64,000 nucleotides of DNA from Candidatus Iainarchaeum sp. GTDB lineage: Archaea; Iainarchaeota; Iainarchaeia; Iainarchaeales; JAAZKV01. This document shows positions 851 to 24,243 of the stretch, piece by piece. A program made the position numbers and the translations under genes. The stretch is from the NCBI GenBank assembly GCA_026397015.1, contig JAPLVR010000006.1, positions 128,001 to 192,000 on the forward strand. The letters run 5' to 3'. A model generated the notes under the pieces. The model worked only from the letters and a program-made list of their open reading frames with translations, was not told the origin of the DNA and ran no database searches. Numbering within the stretch: the first letter of the stretch is position 1; every line of letters starts with the position of its first letter.

Positions 851-1768
851 GTGCCGATAATTAGGTTTCGCGAGCCGCGAATGAAGAAAGAAGTAAAAAT
901 GGGCTTTGCCCAAAGGCTAAGATGCGGAACAAAAGCAATGATGACCAACCTCCACGTGAGAATGACCAAAAAAACCCCTGCAATAAAATTTTACACGTCA
1001 AAAAACCTCCCGAGAAACACAAGGGTCTGCGTTTTTGGGCCGCACCCTGACGACGCGGCAATAAGCCTCGGCGGAACGCTCCACATGCTTACAAGGCCAC
1101 ACGAGAAAAATAACGTTTTTTCATTTGCGCTTACCAGCGGACACAGGGGGGTTGGAAACCACCACGACCCGAAAATAAACAGGCGGCTTACGCCAAAAAT
1201 CAGGGCATACATAAGGAAGAGGGAAACCCGCGCGGCAGACAAAATAATCGGGATAAAAACAAATTTCCTCGACATGGATTTTTACGAAAAAGGGAAGATT
1301 ACCGCGCTCGACATGAAAAAAGCCGAAGAGGCGCTGCAAGCCGTAAAACCGAAAATAATCTTCATGCCTGCGCACGGCGACATAAAACAGGAAACACACC
1401 AATTTTCCCACGAACTGCTGAAAAGGGCAATAAACAATTACGTGAGAAAAACCGGCGAACCTTTGGAAATATGGTTTTATGAAACGCCCTACTACAGCCT
1501 TTCTCCAAGAATGCTGAATGTGGAAGTGGAGCTTGCCGAGAAAAGCAACAGCGCGAAAATTGCCTCACTTGGAAAACTTAAAAGCCAGACCGCAAGAACC
1601 AATCTTGAAGCCGAAGAAAGGCTTGGCGATGCGAGGAAGGGAATAGTTGAACAGGAACTAAAGCACAACGGAAACAGGAAAATTCTCACAAAAATAAGCC
1701 CTGTTGCAAATTTTTCAAGGTGCGCGGTAAGAAGGAGGCTCTTCGGAGTCAGCTGGAAACTATTATAA
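851..1768 (+). CDS. PIG-L/LmbE family deacetylase with basic N-terminal extension
   Basis: GPHPDD metal motif, RxxE (RKRE) and later ETH. A GTG at 851 is preceded by an SD-like GGTGG; ATG 881 and ATG 899 are alternative starts. Confidence 0.8.
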   Translation: MPIIRFREPRMKKEVKMGFAQRLRCGTKAMMTNLHVRMTKKTPAIKFYTSKNLPRNTRVCVFGPHPDDAAISLGGTLHMLTRPHEKNNVFSFALTSGHRGVGNHHDPKINRRLTPKIRAYIRKRETRAADKIIGIKTNFLDMDFYEKGKITALDMKKAEEALQAVKPKIIFMPAHGDIKQETHQFSHELLKRAINNYVRKTGEPLEIWFYETPYYSLSPRMLNVEVELAEKSNSAKIASLGKLKSQTARTNLEAEERLGDARKGIVEQELKHNGNRKILTKISPVANFSRCAVRRRLFGVSWKLL

Positions 1769-1828
1769 TCAAATATTTTTTTAATTATTTAAAATTTAAA
1801 AAGACAAGAATGAAAAGGCACGGTAAAA

Positions 1829-2692
1829 ATGCCAAAAAAAAATCCCATAGTTGAAAGGATACGGAAGCTCAGGATGCTCCACAAGACAAACGAAAAAAGG
1901 CCGGACTTTTACGGGCTGGGCCTGTTCCACGGAAGCGGAAAGGAGCTCTCGCAAATGAGGATTGCCGCCGCGCAGAAAAGGCTCGCGGCAGCAAACATAA
2001 AACCAAAAGTGACAGCAAGGCTCCTTGCAAAAATTGCAAGGGAAACGAAAAAGATGGGCTGGCACGAAAAGGAACTCAATGAACTTGTGCAGGCAAAACA
2101 AAAGTACATAGACAACCGCCTCTATCCAGAAAAGCTGGCGAAGCAGACATCGCAGAGAATAAAAAAAATCCATGAAAAAATGATGCTGGCGGAGAACACA
2201 ATAAAAAAAACACAGGCGCACATTGACAGGATACGCGCAAAAAAAGACAAAAGATACGACAGAAAAATATTCGCGCTTGAAGCGAAAAAATACCGGAAAA
2301 AAATGTTCAGCCTCATGAGGCGGCAGGCGCTTTACAGGCTTGCCGGCAAGGGCAAGGAAAGGTACAAATCGTTTGAACTTGAAATACTCGAGCAGGAAAA
2401 AGCCTACAGGATGTACCTGAAAATGGCAAAAATCAGGGAAAAATTTGACATTTTTGAGGCGAGGGAAAAAAAATTCGACAGGATGAACGGAAAACAAAAA
2501 ATTTCCCACCTGCAGAACGAGATAAACTATTTGAAACAATCAATAAGGCTCACCAGCGAGAACCCCTGGCTGGTCGCCGAAAAAATCGGGGGCAAAGCCG
2601 GGCACTTCACTGACATGCAGCTTGACATACTGAATGAAAAAATGGAGCTTCTCAAAAAGCTTCAAAACGCGGTCTCCGAAAAGCCCAAATAA
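1829..2692 (+). CDS. Orphan basic coiled-coil protein
   Basis: 287-aa ORF, K/R-rich and helical, starts MPKKNP; no recognisable motif. Confidence 0.7.
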   Translation: MPKKNPIVERIRKLRMLHKTNEKRPDFYGLGLFHGSGKELSQMRIAAAQKRLAAANIKPKVTARLLAKIARETKKMGWHEKELNELVQAKQKYIDNRLYPEKLAKQTSQRIKKIHEKMMLAENTIKKTQAHIDRIRAKKDKRYDRKIFALEAKKYRKKMFSLMRRQALYRLAGKGKERYKSFELEILEQEKAYRMYLKMAKIREKFDIFEAREKKFDRMNGKQKISHLQNEINYLKQSIRLTSENPWLVAEKIGGKAGHFTDMQLDILNEKMELLKKLQNAVSEKPK

Positions 2693-19209: not shown

Positions 19210-20274
19210 TTATTTCAGCAATTCATAAATACAATGCATATTTCCTTCCCTCATTACCCAGCAGCCCCCAAAACATGAATATTTGCTTTTGCAGGCTGCA
19301 CACTTCGGATCGGCCTCAATTATGCTTCGACTCCGATACCTCCTGAAGCCGTTTTTCCAGATTTCTAAAAAAGGCTTTTCAATTGCAGAACCCTCCCTAT
19401 ACTTGGGAATATCCGGCTGCTCTGGACAACCCCTAACATTTCCGTCGACACCTATACAACAGGCAGTAAATCCTATGGTGCACACAAGTGGCTCGCTTCG
19501 TATTCTTGTCTCATACTCTGCCAAAAAAGGCAGGTTTTCGCCAATTTTTATGATTAATTTTCCTTTGTTACTTGATTTTACAAATTCAAAAAGTTTTTTC
19601 AACTCTGCAGGAGCTAGAAGAAGTTTTTTGGTCTGTGCCCTGCCTATTGGCATAACAACCGTAATTCTCCAAAGCCTGACATTTAACTCTAAAAGGATTT
19701 TAAGAAGCTTTTCAAGTTCATTTATGTTGCCGGGCGTAACTGTAGTTGCAACAGAAACAATCGGCACATTCCTTTCCTTCAACAATTTTATTGCATTTAT
19801 TGCCTTTTGATAGCTCTGCGAATTTCCACGGATCTTATTGTGTGTTTCTTCTGGACCGTCTAGGCTTATCTGAACAGAAGAAACACCTGCTTCTTTTATT
19901 TTGCTGGCCATTGCCGCATCAATAAAAAAACCGTTTGTGGCAATTCCGGTATCAATCCCCTTTGTTTTAGCGTATGACAGGATGCTCAGCAAATCGGTCC
20001 TCAACAGAGGCTCCCCGCCCGTAACTGCAAAAAACCCGACTCTTAATTCGGCAAGCTCGTCAATTATTTTTTTTATTTGGGGTTCGGTAAGTTCCTCTGA
20101 ATATTTTTCCTTTGTGGCGCCGCAATGTGCACAGTGGAGGTTGCACTTTCTTGTACAGTCCCACAAAACATAGTAGGGCGGATAAATTTTTCCCGTCCTG
20201 CTCAGCGTATTATTGAAACTGTCAAAAAATATTTGATCCCTTATCTCCGCAAAAAAATATCTCAGATTGAACAT
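19210..20274 (-). CDS. Radical SAM/SPASM domain peptide maturase (splicease-like candidate)
   Basis: WDCTRKCNLHCAHCG (CX3CX2C), TGGEP, QISLDG; SPASM CTIG...DGNVRGCP and CAACx5CFGGC. Confidence 0.88.
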   Translation of the reverse strand: MFNLRYFFAEIRDQIFFDSFNNTLSRTGKIYPPYYVLWDCTRKCNLHCAHCGATKEKYSEELTEPQIKKIIDELAELRVGFFAVTGGEPLLRTDLLSILSYAKTKGIDTGIATNGFFIDAAMASKIKEAGVSSVQISLDGPEETHNKIRGNSQSYQKAINAIKLLKERNVPIVSVATTVTPGNINELEKLLKILLELNVRLWRITVVMPIGRAQTKKLLLAPAELKKLFEFVKSSNKGKLIIKIGENLPFLAEYETRIRSEPLVCTIGFTACCIGVDGNVRGCPEQPDIPKYREGSAIEKPFLEIWKNGFRRYRSRSIIEADPKCAACKSKYSCFGGCWVMREGNMHCIYELLK

Positions 20275-20296
20275 ATAACAGAAAATAAGCCCTAAA

Positions 20297-20304
20297 TATT
20301 TAAA
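20297..20304 (-). promoter_or_regulatory. TATA box for the radical SAM gene (probably leaderless)
   Basis: TTTAAATA on the minus strand, 22 nt before the ATG at 20274. Confidence 0.5.
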
Positions 20305-20544
20305 CTACTTTGGAGGCGCTGGACCGTATTCTATCATAGTATTGGGCGGAGCAGGACCATAAGATACCATTGTGCTTGGAAGAATTACAAACAACAATAT
20401 AATCCCGGGAACAACAAATGTAAGTATTATTCCAAAAATTAAAAATATTTTCTTCTTTGTTTTGAGATATTTTTTAAGGCTGAATACGCCCCCGATTATG
20501 GAAGCGAAAAAAAGAATGACAGCTAATATCAAATATATTTCCAT
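20305..20544 (-). CDS. Small 2-TM membrane protein with duplicated C-terminal YGPAP motif (putative rSAM substrate)
   Basis: Two hydrophobic helices separated by KKYLKTKKK, then PSTMVSYGPAP-PNTMIEYGPAP-PK; directly upstream of the rSAM gene. Confidence 0.8.
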   Translation of the reverse strand: MEIYLILAVILFFASIIGGVFSLKKYLKTKKKIFLIFGIILTFVVPGIILLFVILPSTMVSYGPAPPNTMIEYGPAPPK

Positions 20545-20566: not shown

Positions 20567-20574
20567 TATATAAA
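20567..20574 (-). promoter_or_regulatory. TATA box for the YGPAP-repeat gene (probably leaderless)
   Basis: TTTATATA on the minus strand, 22 nt before the ATG at 20544. Confidence 0.55.
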
Positions 20575-20648
20575 TATTCCTAAACTTTTTGGCGGATTAC
20601 GAATAATTGCTTTTACAACTTAAAACTTAATAAAATTGAATATTACAG

Positions 20649-20720
20649 TGGACTCTGGGGGAATCGAACCCCCAATCCCGACCATGCGAAGGTCGTGCCT
20701 TACCGTTAGGCCAAGAGCCC
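20649..20720 (-). tRNA. tRNA-Ala(CGC)
   Basis: Cloverleaf folded by hand: acceptor GGGCTCT/AGAGTCC with G3:U70, anticodon arm CGACC-TT CGC AT-GGTCG, T loop TTCGATT; CCA not encoded. Confidence 0.95.
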
Positions 20721-23107: not shown

Positions 23108-23878
23108 TTATTGAATTAAGCCAATAAAAACACAATTTTCTTTATCATAAGCAATTGCTCCGTCAGTATAGCTCGAATTTAACATTATTTCTCTGTGACC
23201 AGTGGTGCTTCCCATCCACAAACTTAATGCCCTTATACAATTTGACCCGGCAATATTTTCCCCAGAACTATACCCTGACCTCAAAATTATTCCAAAGCGG
23301 CTAACATAATCATCAAAATATTTCCCATCAGAATCTTGATGATCACAACGTGTATAATTACAAAGATCCTTAGACGCTTGAAATTTTACCAATTCATAAA
23401 TCTTGTCATTCCATTTTAGCCGCATTAAGCCATTCTCTTCCCGGATATCATTAAGCTCTTCAAAACTTTCGACATCAATTTCTTTTTGCGATTTACTTGG
23501 TTGGCTTATCACAATTTCTACTAAATCGGGTTCACTTATTGGATCACTTTGATTATCATTCACCAAATCATTTTCAATCGGGTTATTGTTATCCAAGAAA
23601 GGTTGGCTATTAGAATCAATTTCTTGATTAGGGTTCATTTTTATTTGCAACAATAAATACGCCCCAAATGTAACAAGCACTAATAATATTATACAAGCAA
23701 AAATTGTTTCAGCATGGGGAAATGAACTCATACCGTGCGCTATTTTAATATGGGTTCTTGGGCGAGGGTTAAATCTATTGTGTCTTTTTTGAACAGAATA
23801 ATGATAATTGCACAAGCCTGAAGAGAAATACTTCCATTTAGCTATTTTTTTTCCACATCTTTTGCAATGATAACTCAT
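23108..23878 (-). CDS. CAP/SCP domain protein with N-terminal Zn-finger-like motif and TM segment
   Basis: CKRC...CNYH, TM helix, then LNDIREENGL, GENIA, WMGSTTGHREIML. Confidence 0.85.
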   Translation of the reverse strand: MSYHCKRCGKKIAKWKYFSSGLCNYHYSVQKRHNRFNPRPRTHIKIAHGMSSFPHAETIFACIILLVLVTFGAYLLLQIKMNPNQEIDSNSQPFLDNNNPIENDLVNDNQSDPISEPDLVEIVISQPSKSQKEIDVESFEELNDIREENGLMRLKWNDKIYELVKFQASKDLCNYTRCDHQDSDGKYFDDYVSRFGIILRSGYSSGENIAGSNCIRALSLWMGSTTGHREIMLNSSYTDGAIAYDKENCVFIGLIQ

Positions 23879-23996: not shown

Positions 23997-24068
23997 TGCG
24001 GCTTACGGGAATTGAACCCGTTCATCCACCTTGGGAAGGTGGAATCATAACCGTTAGACCAAAGCCGC
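23997..24068 (-). tRNA. tRNA-Gly(CCC), intronless
   Basis: Acceptor GCGGCTT/AAGCCGC, anticodon arm CCACC-TT CCC AA-GGTGG, T loop TTCAATT. Confidence 0.95.
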
Positions 24069-24154: not shown

Positions 24155-24243
24155 CGGGCCTAGAGGGAATCGAACCCCCATCCCAAGATCTCTTCACATT
24201 AAAATTCCGAAGTCTTGTCGGCTATCCATTACCACATAGGCCC
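24155..24243 (-). tRNA. tRNA-Arg(TCG) with 17-nt intron at 37/38 (24190-24206)
   Basis: Acceptor GGGCCTA/TAGGCCC, anticodon stem CAAGA/TCTTG, BHB central helix CTTC/GAAG with AG|A bulge. Confidence 0.92.

What the first reader, a model, noticed from the sequence alone, without database searches (positions are those of the whole stretch)
19210..20544. Candidate archaeal splicease-type system: rSAM/SPASM enzyme plus membrane-anchored substrate with two YGPAP repeats
Seen: a 79-aa protein has two TM helices followed by a tandem 11-aa repeat, PSTMVSYGPAP / PNTMIEYGPAP. The YGPAP codons differ at synonymous positions, which suggests selection on the peptide. The gene lies 30 nt upstream of a radical SAM/SPASM gene, and the pair sits just past the 3' end of tRNA-Ala(CGC). 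Established: PlpX-type radical SAM spliceases excise tyramine from X-Tyr-Gly motifs, leaving alpha-keto-beta-amino amides, a protease-inhibitor warhead. From memory, their motifs (W..T..CNL.C.HCG; C..G....I..DG...GCP) match this enzyme, and the TIGR04133/TIGR04134 rSAM-lipoprotein pair also has a YG partner. Inference: this DPANN archaeon makes a doubly backbone-spliced, membrane-tethered ketoamide peptide, with no PqqD/RRE partner, protease or transporter in the locus.
Basis: partly seen in the sequence, partly recalled or inferred. Interest (0 to 1): 0.85.

Follow-up and report, generated by a model that had tools for sequence, protein, structure and literature searches.

The report
Radical SAM enzyme with membrane-anchored Tyr-Gly substrate
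A small archaeal genome carries a two-gene cassette, a radical SAM enzyme and a tiny membrane protein with Tyr-Gly-Pro motifs that the enzyme probably modifies; the pair recurs in unrelated archaea and bacteria, and its chemistry is unknown.

Summary
Window 20305-20544(-) encodes a 79-aa protein with two TM helices and a PSTMVSYGPAP/PNTMIEYGPAP tail. It lies 30 nt upstream of a 354-aa rSAM/SPASM gene (19210-20274,-) and just past tRNA-Ala(CGC). The pairing is not chance. In 38 of 47 orthologous loci (archaea, CPR, Chloroflexota, Cloacimonadota, Proteobacteria) an adjacent same-strand ORF carries Y[GAM][PA]x[PE], against 3 of 1226 non-adjacent ORFs. Enzyme clades follow the partner's architecture. 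A complex model threads the first YGPAP into the barrel (ipSAE 0.83; best control 0.01). The nearest named family is TIGR04133 (223 bits; cut-off 425, not met). Its relatives sit beside lipoproteins that carry x-Y-G shortly after the lipid-anchor Cys. The cassette is therefore a TM-anchored variant of the uncharacterised "rSAM/lipoprotein" system. It is not a member of the PlpX family model (TIGR04103: 135 bits; cut-off 725). Tyramine splicing is the leading candidate chemistry (about 0.4) because Tyr-Gly is the superfamily-wide core, but it is untested. The cassette was found in 1 of 215 genomes of its phylum (plus one 41% variant) and is missing at the same site in the congeneric genome. There is no RRE, protease or transporter.

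The parts
20305..20544 (-). Partner/substrate gene, 79 aa (stop at 20305-20307): N-out, two-TM hairpin with a C-terminal tail carrying two x-Y-G-P-x-P motifs
   Evidence: A family of 30 aligned homologues has G19, L35 and Y62 invariant, and T29, G38, T42, P64 and P66 at 90% or more. It is single copy in its own genome.
20476..20541 (-). TM helix 1 (residues 2-23)
   Evidence: hydropathy; conserved in A2
20449..20475 (-). Basic loop KKYLKTKKK (residues 24-32), predicted cytoplasmic by the positive-inside rule (inference)
   Evidence: consensus (K/R)(Y/F)xxT(R/K)K
20380..20448 (-). TM helix 2 (residues 33-55) with the conserved GLxLTFxVPG
20347..20379 (-). Motif repeat 1, PSTMVSYGPAP (residues 56-66); Tyr62 is the invariant residue of the family
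   Evidence: In the complex model G63-P66 make the lowest-error contacts inside the barrel.
20314..20346 (-). Motif repeat 2, PNTMIEYGPAP (residues 67-77)
   Evidence: residues 72 and 75-79 also touch the enzyme in the model
20567..20574 (-). TATA-like box TTTATATA, 21-28 nt upstream of the partner ATG (likely a leaderless or short-leader transcript; inference)
20275..20304 (-). 30-nt spacer containing TTTAAATA; either co-transcription or a second TATA-like box for the enzyme gene
19210..20274 (-). rSAM/SPASM maturase gene, 354 aa (stop at 19210-19212)
   Evidence: model pLDDT 90.8
20122..20145 (-). Radical SAM cluster motif C44-x3-C48-x2-C51 (CNLHCAHCG)
   Evidence: invariant C44, C48, H50, C51, G52
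19231..19482 (-). SPASM region, residues 265-348, with cysteines C265, C272/273, C283, C325, C328, C334, C338 and C348 for two auxiliary clusters
20194..20265 (-). N-terminal helix of the enzyme (residues 4-27), which contacts the partner in the model in place of an RRE domain
   Evidence: enzyme residues 9-32 are in the interface
20648..20720 (-). tRNA-Ala(CGC), the upstream boundary of the cassette (context, not part of the system)
   Evidence: The same tRNA lies between the same flanking genes in congeneric G001, without the cassette.

Best explanation
The two genes are a self-contained maturase-substrate cassette. The cytoplasmic rSAM/SPASM enzyme has no RRE domain. It binds the juxtamembrane tail of the 79-aa protein with its N-terminal helix and barrel. 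It uses a 5'-deoxyadenosyl radical to modify the invariant Tyr of each hydrophobic-x-Tyr-Gly-Pro-x-Pro motif, and it does so before the tail is moved across the membrane. The modified motif then stays tethered at the outer face of the membrane. Shown: the enzyme's domains, the conserved pairing, co-variation of enzyme clade with partner architecture, motif conservation, and the absence of other conserved genes. Inferred: the substrate relation, the order of modification before export, and the topology. The chemistry is not shown. My leading candidate (about 0.4 absolute) is splicease-like excision of a tyramine equivalent at x-Tyr-Gly, leaving an alpha-keto-beta-amino amide, because Tyr-Gly is the only feature shared across all partner architectures and the sister TIGR04133 system. 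The confidence given here is for the maturase-substrate reading, not for the splicing chemistry.
For: Pairing: 38 of 47 orthologous loci have an adjacent same-strand ORF with Y[GAM][PA]x[PE], against 3 of 1226 other ORFs. Of the 9 misses, 4 are cut by contig ends (L044, L052, L058, L075), 4 carry variant motifs (L024, L045, L047, L078), and 1 has a truncated enzyme gene (L063).
Partner family: 30 two-TM partners align with Tyr62 invariant.
Co-variation: enzyme clades B and C (each 100/99 support) match the partner types signal peptide + motif + C-terminal TM, and lipobox-like multi-motif. Type A is one side of a branch.
No third gene recurs across phyla.
Complex model: ipSAE 0.70/0.83/0.83, best of 3 controls 0.01; the runs share at least 85% of contacts; partner pLDDT is at least 58. 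That mark was reached by 58 of 80 solved complexes and 2 of 110 mismatched pairs. Partner residues 63-66 touch strand ends 35-37, 81-85, 110-112, 133-135 and 172-176.
Fold neighbours are peptide- or protein-modifying SPASM enzymes: SkfB, SuiB, CteB, PqqE and anSME.
Sister family: TIGR04133-like enzymes lie beside lipoprotein-like ORFs with Y[GA]x0-2P within 60 aa of the Cys in 55 of 79 loci, against 10 of 1278 other ORFs.
For splicing specifically: the core is x-Tyr-Gly and the -1 residue is variable, as in published XYG sites. Published splice tags read ...PLYGLPI and ...AGYGVVFP, and sister partners read ...VVMYGVRPP. Binary spliceases also lack an RRE protein.
Against: No experiment bears on this family. 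No RNA holder is on record, and no paper on TIGR04133 was found.
The enzyme fails the PlpX family model (135 against 725 bits) and is no nearer to it than to MftC (155) or AhbD (152).
Gly is Ala in 9 and Met in 4 of 64 motif instances. Pro at +2 is more conserved (61 of 64) than Gly (51 of 64) within this family, which fits a Tyr-x-Pro logic equally well. The selection regex itself required Y[GAM] and a nearby Pro.
The predicted topology puts the tail outside while the enzyme is cytoplasmic, so modification must precede insertion. That is assumed, not shown.
The complex score is a model's confidence. This job used my own alignments and carried ligands, unlike the calibration set.
Confidence: 0.75

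Rival explanations
1. Same enzyme-substrate pair, but the chemistry is a Tyr-centred crosslink. This could be a three-residue cyclophane-type C-C or C-O bond from the Tyr ring to Pro at +2, or a link to the conserved Val/Met/Ile at -2. It would rigidify the juxtamembrane segment.
For: Within this family Tyr (64 of 64) and Pro+2 (61 of 64) are more conserved than the residue between them (G 51, A 9, M 4), and -2 is V/M/I in 62 of 64. Repeated short motifs are typical of cyclophane-forming rSAM substrates (recalled). WgkB, MftC and PqqE, all crosslinking SPASM enzymes, are among the better NCBIfam hits. SuiB is a close fold match.
Against: In the sister TIGR04133-like loci and in L002 the Pro shifts to +3 or +4 or is absent, while Tyr-Gly stays. 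This argues against a fixed Tyr-x-Pro geometry. No crosslinking family model is met.
Confidence: 0.2
2. Same pair, but another radical modification of the motif: epimerisation, beta-hydroxylation, or Calpha-Cbeta cleavage of Tyr (tyrosine-lyase-like). The last could even yield a membrane-tethered, Tyr-derived redox group.
For: The second-best family is the mycofactocin maturase MftC (155-172 bits), which acts on a Val-Tyr end. PqqE also acts on Tyr. The scaffold is conserved and never released (no protease), as expected for a functional modified protein rather than a secreted peptide.
Against: Cut-offs are not met (MftC 265, PqqE 381). There are no MftB/D/E/F or PqqB/C/D neighbours. Tyr is not C-terminal here.
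Confidence: 0.12
3. The small protein is not a substrate. It is a membrane-docking or regulatory subunit that brings the rSAM enzyme to the membrane to act on something else, for example a lipid.
For: The two TM helices are themselves conserved (GLxLTFxVPG). A lipid-modifying rSAM (GDGT-MAS) appears among weak PDB hits (53 bits).
Against: In architectures B and C and in the TIGR04133 partners the motif follows a signal peptide or lipobox, so it ends up outside the cell, where a cytoplasmic Fe-S enzyme cannot stay bound. The only element shared by all architectures is the Tyr-Gly motif, not the anchor. The model places the motif in the active-site barrel.
Confidence: 0.06
4. The small ORF is a chance or unexpressed reading frame, and the adjacency means nothing.
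For: No RNA evidence could be obtained. The protein has no Pfam or NCBIfam family.
Against: Homologous ORFs of 31-51% identity lie next to the enzyme gene across two domains of life. Synonymous differences between the two repeats and a TATA-like box also argue against it.
Confidence: 0.02

Closest known systems
TIGR04133 / TIGR04134 'rSAM/lipoprotein system' (NCBIfam hypothetical equivalogs; function unknown; commonest phylum Bacteroidota in the Atlas cluster)
   Same: It is the best-scoring family for the window enzyme and for 13 of 13 orthologues tested (207-234 bits, 50-70 bits above the next family). It has the same two-gene logic, the same length, and the same N-terminal helix plus rSAM plus full SPASM. 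The partner is membrane-anchored and carries hydrophobic-x-Tyr-Gly close to the anchor, at a median of 14 residues after the lipobox Cys. One partner even reads C-YGPAP (L149).
   Different: The enzyme is below the 425-bit cut-off, and the partner does not match TIGR04134 (0 of 14). The anchor is a two-TM hairpin, or a signal peptide plus C-terminal TM, rather than a lipid. The motif is Y-G-P-x-P rather than Y-G-x-P. The hosts are DPANN archaea, CPR, Chloroflexota and Cloacimonadota. The enzyme family is a separate clade (95/99 support).
Tyramine spliceases / spliceotides (PlpX, PcpX, RhaX; IPR026482)
   Same: Both are rSAM/SPASM enzymes that act on x-Tyr-Gly motifs, often repeated, with a variable x. 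Binary systems work without an RRE protein, and proteins can be substrates. A published genome-mining approach used YG enrichment next to rSAM-SPASM genes (review text), and this locus would pass that approach.
   Different: TIGR04103 scores 135 bits against a cut-off of 725. There is no Nif11/NHLP-type leader, and the substrate is an integral membrane protein that is not released. Gly is not invariant. No mass data exist. I could not read Scott et al., Chem 2022 (not held), so I cannot say whether that survey already includes this clade.
Anaerobic sulfatase-maturating enzyme (anSME)
   Same: It is a SPASM enzyme that modifies a short motif of a protein in the cytoplasm before export, and it is a fold match (4k36-4k39).
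   Different: Its target is Cys/Ser, converted to formylglycine in sulfatases. Sequence similarity is only 56 bits.
Mycofactocin maturase MftC / PqqE
   Same: Both are Tyr-directed SPASM enzymes acting on small peptides, and they are the second tier of HMM hits.
   Different: Cut-offs are not met, there are no accessory genes, and Tyr is internal rather than C-terminal.

Membership tests
TIGR04133 (rSAM_w_lipo) | HMM score at or above the curated cut-off of 425 bits | tested here: not met
   223.5 bits; 13 orthologues score 207-234. A true member, P0155, scores 457.
TIGR04133 (rSAM_w_lipo) | Adjacent TIGR04134 lipoprotein | tested here: not met
   The TIGR04134 model finds nothing at the locus. 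0 of 14 partners match at E<=1. The window partner has 0 NCBIfam families and has two TM helices and no lipobox.
TIGR04133 (rSAM_w_lipo) | Partner is membrane-anchored and carries x-Tyr-Gly near the anchor (a feature I derived here, not a curated one) | tested here: met
   for TIGR04133-like loci; for this family
Tyramine splicease (PlpX type) | Membership of the PlpX family model (TIGR04103; the mapping to IPR026482 is recalled) | tested here: not met
   135.2 bits against a cut-off of 725, sixth in rank
Tyramine splicease (PlpX type) | rSAM CX3CX2C plus a SPASM domain | tested here: met
Tyramine splicease (PlpX type) | x-Tyr-Gly splice motif in the co-encoded precursor | tested here: inconclusive
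   The window has SYG and EYG. Across orthologues Tyr is 64 of 64 but Gly only 51 of 64 (Ala 9, Met 4).
Tyramine splicease (PlpX type) | Loss of C8H9NO (135.06 Da) per site, giving an alpha-keto-beta-amino amide | not testable with these tools
   needs co-expression and LC-MS/MS
Canonical RiPP cluster | RRE/PqqD element, leader protease or exporter in the locus | tested here: not met
   No PqqD domain. Neighbours are a T2SSE ATPase, a CCA-adding enzyme, NUDIX, HAD and EamA. No third gene recurs across phyla.
Mycofactocin maturase MftC (TIGR03962) | HMM cut-off of 265 bits and an MftA/B context | tested here: not met
   155.3 bits; no such neighbours
Three-residue cyclophane (triceptide-type) maturases | Aromatic-x-x3 motif with fixed spacing in the precursor | tested here: inconclusive
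   Y-x-P holds in 61 of 64 instances here, but the spacing drifts in sister families. No family model for these enzymes appeared among the 25 listed hits.
Prokaryotic viperin (defence) | pVip model as best match, no SPASM domain | tested here: not met
   88 bits over the rSAM core only, far below TIGR04133; a SPASM domain is present

The most novel reading that the evidence does not exclude
This cassette and the Bacteroidota rSAM/lipoprotein system together form one cross-domain superfamily that performs backbone splicing (tyramine excision) on juxtamembrane x-Tyr-Gly motifs of permanently membrane-anchored proteins. Cells, including minimal-genome DPANN and CPR organisms, would then display an electrophilic alpha-ketoamide on their outer membrane face. 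It could serve as a tethered protease trap or as a covalent handle for surface or host attachment, rather than being secreted as a natural product.
Probability: 0.3. Interest if true: 0.85.

Novelty: new variant of a known kind. Interest (0 to 1): 0.62.

Why it matters
If the enzyme does modify the tail, this is a compact, portable system of two genes that installs a radical modification on an integral membrane protein. It has spread between archaea and bacteria, including lineages with very small genomes, so it probably serves cell-surface physiology rather than antibiotic production. It also links an orphan family that has no Pfam or NCBIfam name to the unexplained TIGR04133/TIGR04134 system, and it gives both a shared, directly testable target: the Tyr of x-Tyr-Gly next to the anchor. 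If the chemistry is tyramine splicing, the known substrates would extend from soluble peptides to membrane proteins and to archaea, and a short RRE-free enzyme and tag would become available for protein engineering. If it is not, the family probably hides a new Tyr-directed reaction.

Tried and rejected
TIGR04134 model: no match at the locus and none to 14 partner proteins of all architectures.

Single-sequence search with the partner: only itself and P0122. The profile search found 35 proteins, all unnamed; one carries a mismatched transporter name.

Literature: 'TIGR04133' gave 0 papers. 'TIGR04134' occurs in one T9SS review only. 'splicease'+'Bacteroid' gave 2 papers and nothing specific. 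'radical SAM'+'YG motif' gave 3 papers, 2 of them listed, both reviews. Two searches were badly framed and useless. Scott et al., Chem 2022 is not held, and supplements are closed. That survey may already list this clade.

Sequencing runs: no RNA holder listed; read laying was not used.

Atlas: for the partner the best score was 0.81, below the useful range. For the enzyme it returned generic rSAM/SPASM clusters, with one 'rSAM/lipoprotein system' cluster at rank 4.

PADLOC: only generic viperin-core hits.

Base composition: the cassette has about 0.40 GC, like its flanks, so there is no compositional sign of transfer.

Double-rSAM fusion proteins among the distant hits (P0128, P0129, P0131 and others) showed no YG-rich extension and were dropped.

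I could not obtain sequences of validated spliceases, so no joint tree or similarity network with PlpX, PcpX or RhaX was made.

Considered and rejected: a C-terminal sorting signal (PGF-CTERM or PEP-CTERM-like). In type B partners the motif is about 20 or more residues from the TM helix, and in type A it follows the helix.
Full report
**What is in the window**

On the minus strand lie, in order, tRNA-Ala(cgc) at 20648-20720, a small ORF, and a 354-aa ORF at 19210-20274. The small ORF is listed from TTG 20565 (86 aa). The 79-aa reading from ATG 20544 is the better one. A TTTATATA box lies 21-28 nt upstream of that ATG, and homologues align from that Met.

The 79-aa protein has two hydrophobic stretches around a KKYLKTKKK loop. 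It ends in PSTMVSYGPAP-PNTMIEYGPAP-PK. The two YGPAP units differ at 4 of 5 third codon positions. Thirty nucleotides separate its stop from the ATG of the enzyme gene.

The enzyme has Radical_SAM, Fer4_12 and SPASM domains and an invariant CNLxCxHCG. It also has the full SPASM complement of cysteines.

**Is the pairing real?**

The enzyme has many close relatives. The search returned 3231 proteins at E<=0.001, and the best 120 are all 52-70% identical. A scan of one genome per species returned 77 loci. I treated 47 of them as orthologues: L021-L065, L075 and L078, with best segments of 44-65% identity.

These orthologues come from records titled Woesearchaeota, Methanosarcinales, Methanobacteriota, Micrarchaeota, Altiarchaeota, Nanobdellota, Chloroflexota/Anaerolineae, several CPR groups, Cloacimonadota, Gammaproteobacteria, Bdellovibrionales and Omnitrophota.

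In 38 of the 47 loci, a same-strand ORF within 400 nt of the enzyme gene carries Y[GAM][PA]x[PE]. Only 3 of 1226 other ORFs of 40-250 aa in the same loci do. The nine misses are as follows:
- Four are cut by a contig end: L044, L052, L058 and L075.
- Four have variant partners:
  - L024 has MMPYGPAY on a duplicated two-TM protein.
  - L045 has TMIYGG ahead of a homologous two-TM unit, encoded downstream.
  - L047 has VVYASPEV.
  - L078 has PAYGSD.
- One, L063, has a truncated enzyme gene.

All-against-all clustering of flanking ORFs found only the enzyme and the partner recurring across phyla. The window's own neighbours are unrelated: a T2SSE ATPase, an archaeal CCA-adding enzyme, NUDIX, HAD and EamA. 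The unit is therefore two genes.

**The partner is a protein family, not just a motif**

Thirty two-TM partners align at 31-51% identity to the window protein. G19, L35 and Y62 are invariant. T29, G38, T42, P64 and P66 are conserved at 90% or more. The loop consensus is (K/R)(Y/F)xxT(R/K)K, and TM2 reads GLxLTFxVPG. A profile of this alignment finds 35 proteins in the large protein collection. None has a Pfam domain or a meaningful name. The window's genome holds one copy.

Three architectures occur:
- Type A: a two-TM hairpin with a C-terminal tail holding 1-3 motifs. Found in archaea, Chloroflexota and some CPR.
- Type B: a signal peptide, then the motif, then often a CGxNKxC loop, a C-terminal TM helix and a basic end. 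Found in Proteobacteria, Bdellovibrionales, Omnitrophota and other CPR.
- Type C: in Cloacimonadota, longer proteins with a lipobox-like LLSSSC or LLGTC and 2-4 YGPP motifs, some encoded downstream of the enzyme.

In a careful IQ-TREE analysis the 40 enzymes form one group (95/99 support). Types B and C are each a clade with 100/99 support. Type A is one side of a weakly supported branch (52/81) (the quick version is). Enzyme and partner have therefore diversified together.

Across 64 motif instances from 43 partners:
- Tyr is present in 64.
- The residue at +1 is Gly in 51, Ala in 9 and Met in 4.
- Pro is at +2 in 61.
- Position -2 is Val, Met or Ile in 62.
- Position -1 is variable.

Two cautions apply. 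The selection required Y[GAM] and a nearby Pro, and one instance (L026) is probably spurious.

**Does the enzyme bind the tail?**

The enzyme model is confident (pLDDT 90.8, pTM 0.90). It shows a long N-terminal helix (residues 4-27), a partial barrel and a SPASM domain, and no RRE-like domain.

Its nearest solved folds and sequences are enzymes that modify peptides or proteins: SkfB, SuiB, CteB, PqqE and anSME.

A complex prediction was run with enzyme, partner residues 40-79, SAM and three clusters. The details are:
- ipSAE was 0.70, 0.83 and 0.83, against a best control of 0.01.
- The runs agree in at least 85% of contacts, and partner pLDDT is at least 58.
- That mark was reached by 58 of 80 solved complexes and 2 of 110 mismatched pairs. 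My own alignments and the ligands make those counts approximate.
- Partner residues 53-70, 72 and 75-79 touch the enzyme.
- The lowest-error pairs join G63, P64, A65 and P66 to enzyme residues 35, 37, 81-85, 110-112, 133-135, 172-176 and 284. These are the strand ends that line the barrel.
- The N-terminal helix (residues 9-32) is also in the interface.

This supports a substrate-in-active-site arrangement but does not prove it. I had no coordinates, so I could not measure the distance from Tyr to SAM.

**Topology (inference)**

By the positive-inside rule the basic loop is cytoplasmic, and the short N-terminus and the tail are outside. In types B and C the motif follows a signal peptide or a lipobox, so it too ends up outside. 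The enzyme has no signal peptide or TM helix and needs Fe-S clusters, so it is cytoplasmic. The two can therefore meet only before export or insertion, as with anSME and sulfatases (established knowledge). This also argues against the small protein being a stable docking subunit.

**Comparison with named families**

TIGR04133 ('rSAM_w_lipo') is the best NCBIfam hit at 223.5 bits against a cut-off of 425. Lower scores are MftC 155, AhbD 152, NirJ2 143, TIGR04103 135, WgkB 133 and PqqE 117. The same ranking holds for 13 of 13 orthologues tested (207-234 bits).

An exhaustive profile search shows how compact the family is. About five 50%-identity representatives score 335-545 bits, and below them scores run on continuously. 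Of 40 lower hits scanned, 16 have TIGR04133 as their family at E<=1e-75. One of them, P0155, is above the cut-off at 457 bits.

Using 13 of these 16 as a query, I fetched 80 metagenome loci. In the 18 that I read in full, the neighbour is a lipoprotein with a motif soon after the lipobox Cys. Examples are VVMYGVRPP, QLMYGVPFP, ICMYGTPT, VVAYGSPH, SVEYGTPT and three copies of AVYGSPEII.

Scripted counts over the 79 loci that hold an enzyme ORF gave these results:
- 31 of 79 with the strictest pattern, against 3 of 1278 other ORFs.
- 40 of 79 with a looser pattern, against 8 of 1278.
- 55 of 79 (43 distinct partner sequences) with a lipoprotein-like N-terminus and Y[GA]x0-2P within 60 residues, against 10 of 1278. 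The median distance from Cys to Tyr is 14 residues.

Many of the remaining loci are visible hits that the regular expressions missed, for example VVVMYGVRTP, or are cut by contig ends. Many loci are near-copies of each other, so these counts are not independent.

The more distant homologue in the window's own order (L002, 41% identity) sits behind a multi-TM protein with RPMYGV, EPMYGV and APEYGV.

The common denominator across the whole superfamily is thus a membrane anchor plus hydrophobic-x-Tyr-Gly. The window cassette is nevertheless not a member, because both HMM tests fail.

**The splicease question**

What I read in the literature:
- PlpX-type enzymes (IPR026482) excise a tyramine equivalent (C8H9NO, 135.06 Da) at XYG, with X variable (passages).
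- Later 'binary' systems lack the Y/RRE protein, and a helix from the leader activates the enzyme (main text, parts 1-2 of 4).
- Proteins carrying a short tag can be spliced.
- A survey that I could not read (Scott et al., Chem 2022) mined rSAM-SPASM genes with YG-rich neighbours. One review says it confirmed 27 pairs. Another paper says it found thousands of clusters in bacteria and archaea.

The present locus fits that search logic. It has x-Tyr-Gly repeats, a variable x, no RRE, and an enzyme-borne N-terminal helix at the interface.

Against membership:
- The PlpX family model is far from met (135 against 725 bits).
- It ranks no better than cofactor and crosslinking SPASM families.
- Gly is replaced in 13 of 64 natural motifs.

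In favour of a Tyr-Gly-centred reaction over a Tyr-x-Pro crosslink, the Pro drifts (+2, +3, +4 or absent) across sister families while Tyr-Gly stays. I put tyramine splicing at about 0.4, a Tyr crosslink at about 0.2, and other radical chemistry at about 0.12. The maturase-substrate relation itself I put at about 0.75-0.85.

**Distribution and mobility**

Among 215 genomes of the window's phylum, only its own genome and G034 (the 41% variant) match at E<=1e-60. None of the 58 high-quality genomes match (for the 41 nearest relatives).

In the congeneric genome G001 (88% complete), the T2SSE-CCA block (78% DNA identity) and the NUDIX gene are syntenic. Between them lie unrelated small ORFs, the same tRNA-Ala(cgc) and a 380-aa ORF with LAGLIDADG-like motifs. 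There is no rSAM cassette.

In the enzyme tree two CPR sequences nest among archaeal ones (L041 and L042 with L038). The window enzyme's nearest relatives are Woesearchaeota records at 64% identity.

The cassette is therefore an accessory unit that has moved between lineages and domains. Its GC content (about 0.40) matches its flanks.

**Verdict**

This is a real, conserved two-gene system. It is best described as a TM-anchored, archaeal/CPR/Chloroflexota variant of the uncharacterised rSAM/lipoprotein system, with a Tyr-Gly target next to the membrane anchor. The splicease reading is a reasonable but unproven lead. Membership of the PlpX family was tested and not met. The system is a new variant of a known kind, it is directly testable, and I score its interest at about 0.6.

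Noticed in passing
window 24155-24243 (-): ARAGORN reports an 89-nt tRNA of undetermined identity ('tRNA-???', anticodon read as 'cg'), next to tRNA-Gly(ccc) at 23997-24068. It may be an intron-containing or otherwise atypical archaeal tRNA.
   Followed up: no
L189 (G001:C1:102700-105400) 1113-2255 (-): In the congeneric genome, a 380-aa ORF with LAGLIDADG-like motifs (LGDGH...LLDTDGH) abuts tRNA-Ala(cgc) at the site where the window has a NUDIX gene directly. This spot beside the tRNA is variable between the two genomes.
   Followed up: partly
L025 43-171 and 270-521; L030 2372-2629 and 2721-2972; L155 3577-4056 and 4088-4576: Some loci carry two tandem partner genes for one enzyme: Anaerolineales in the window's family, and a TIGR04133-like locus with two lipoproteins.
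   Followed up: no
L024 2432-2992: A 186-aa partner in a Methanosarcinales record looks like an internal duplication of the two-TM unit joined by a Pro/Thr/Ser-rich linker, with one MMPYGPAY motif.
   Followed up: no
P0128, P0129, P0131, P0133, P0143, P0144: Among the nearest non-family hits are 660-850-aa proteins made of two complete rSAM/SPASM modules in tandem. Their second module is the one most like this enzyme.
   Followed up: partly
window 23108-23878 (-): A 256-aa protein has an N-terminal Cys-rich (zinc-ribbon-like) segment, one TM helix and a C-terminal CAP/SCP domain (Pfam CAP, E 4e-8). This is an unusual domain for a small archaeal genome.
   Followed up: no
L048, L050, L047 (type B partners): A conserved Cys pair, ACG(G/D/R)NK(L/V)C, follows the Tyr motif directly in the proteobacterial-type partners. 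It suggests a small disulfide loop next to the modified site.
   Followed up: no
G000:C4:22983-23945 (-) and G000:C5:226432-227256 (-): The window's genome holds two further, distant rSAM/SPASM-like genes (31% identity; TIGR04133 model 116 and 41 bits). Their contexts were not examined.
   Followed up: no
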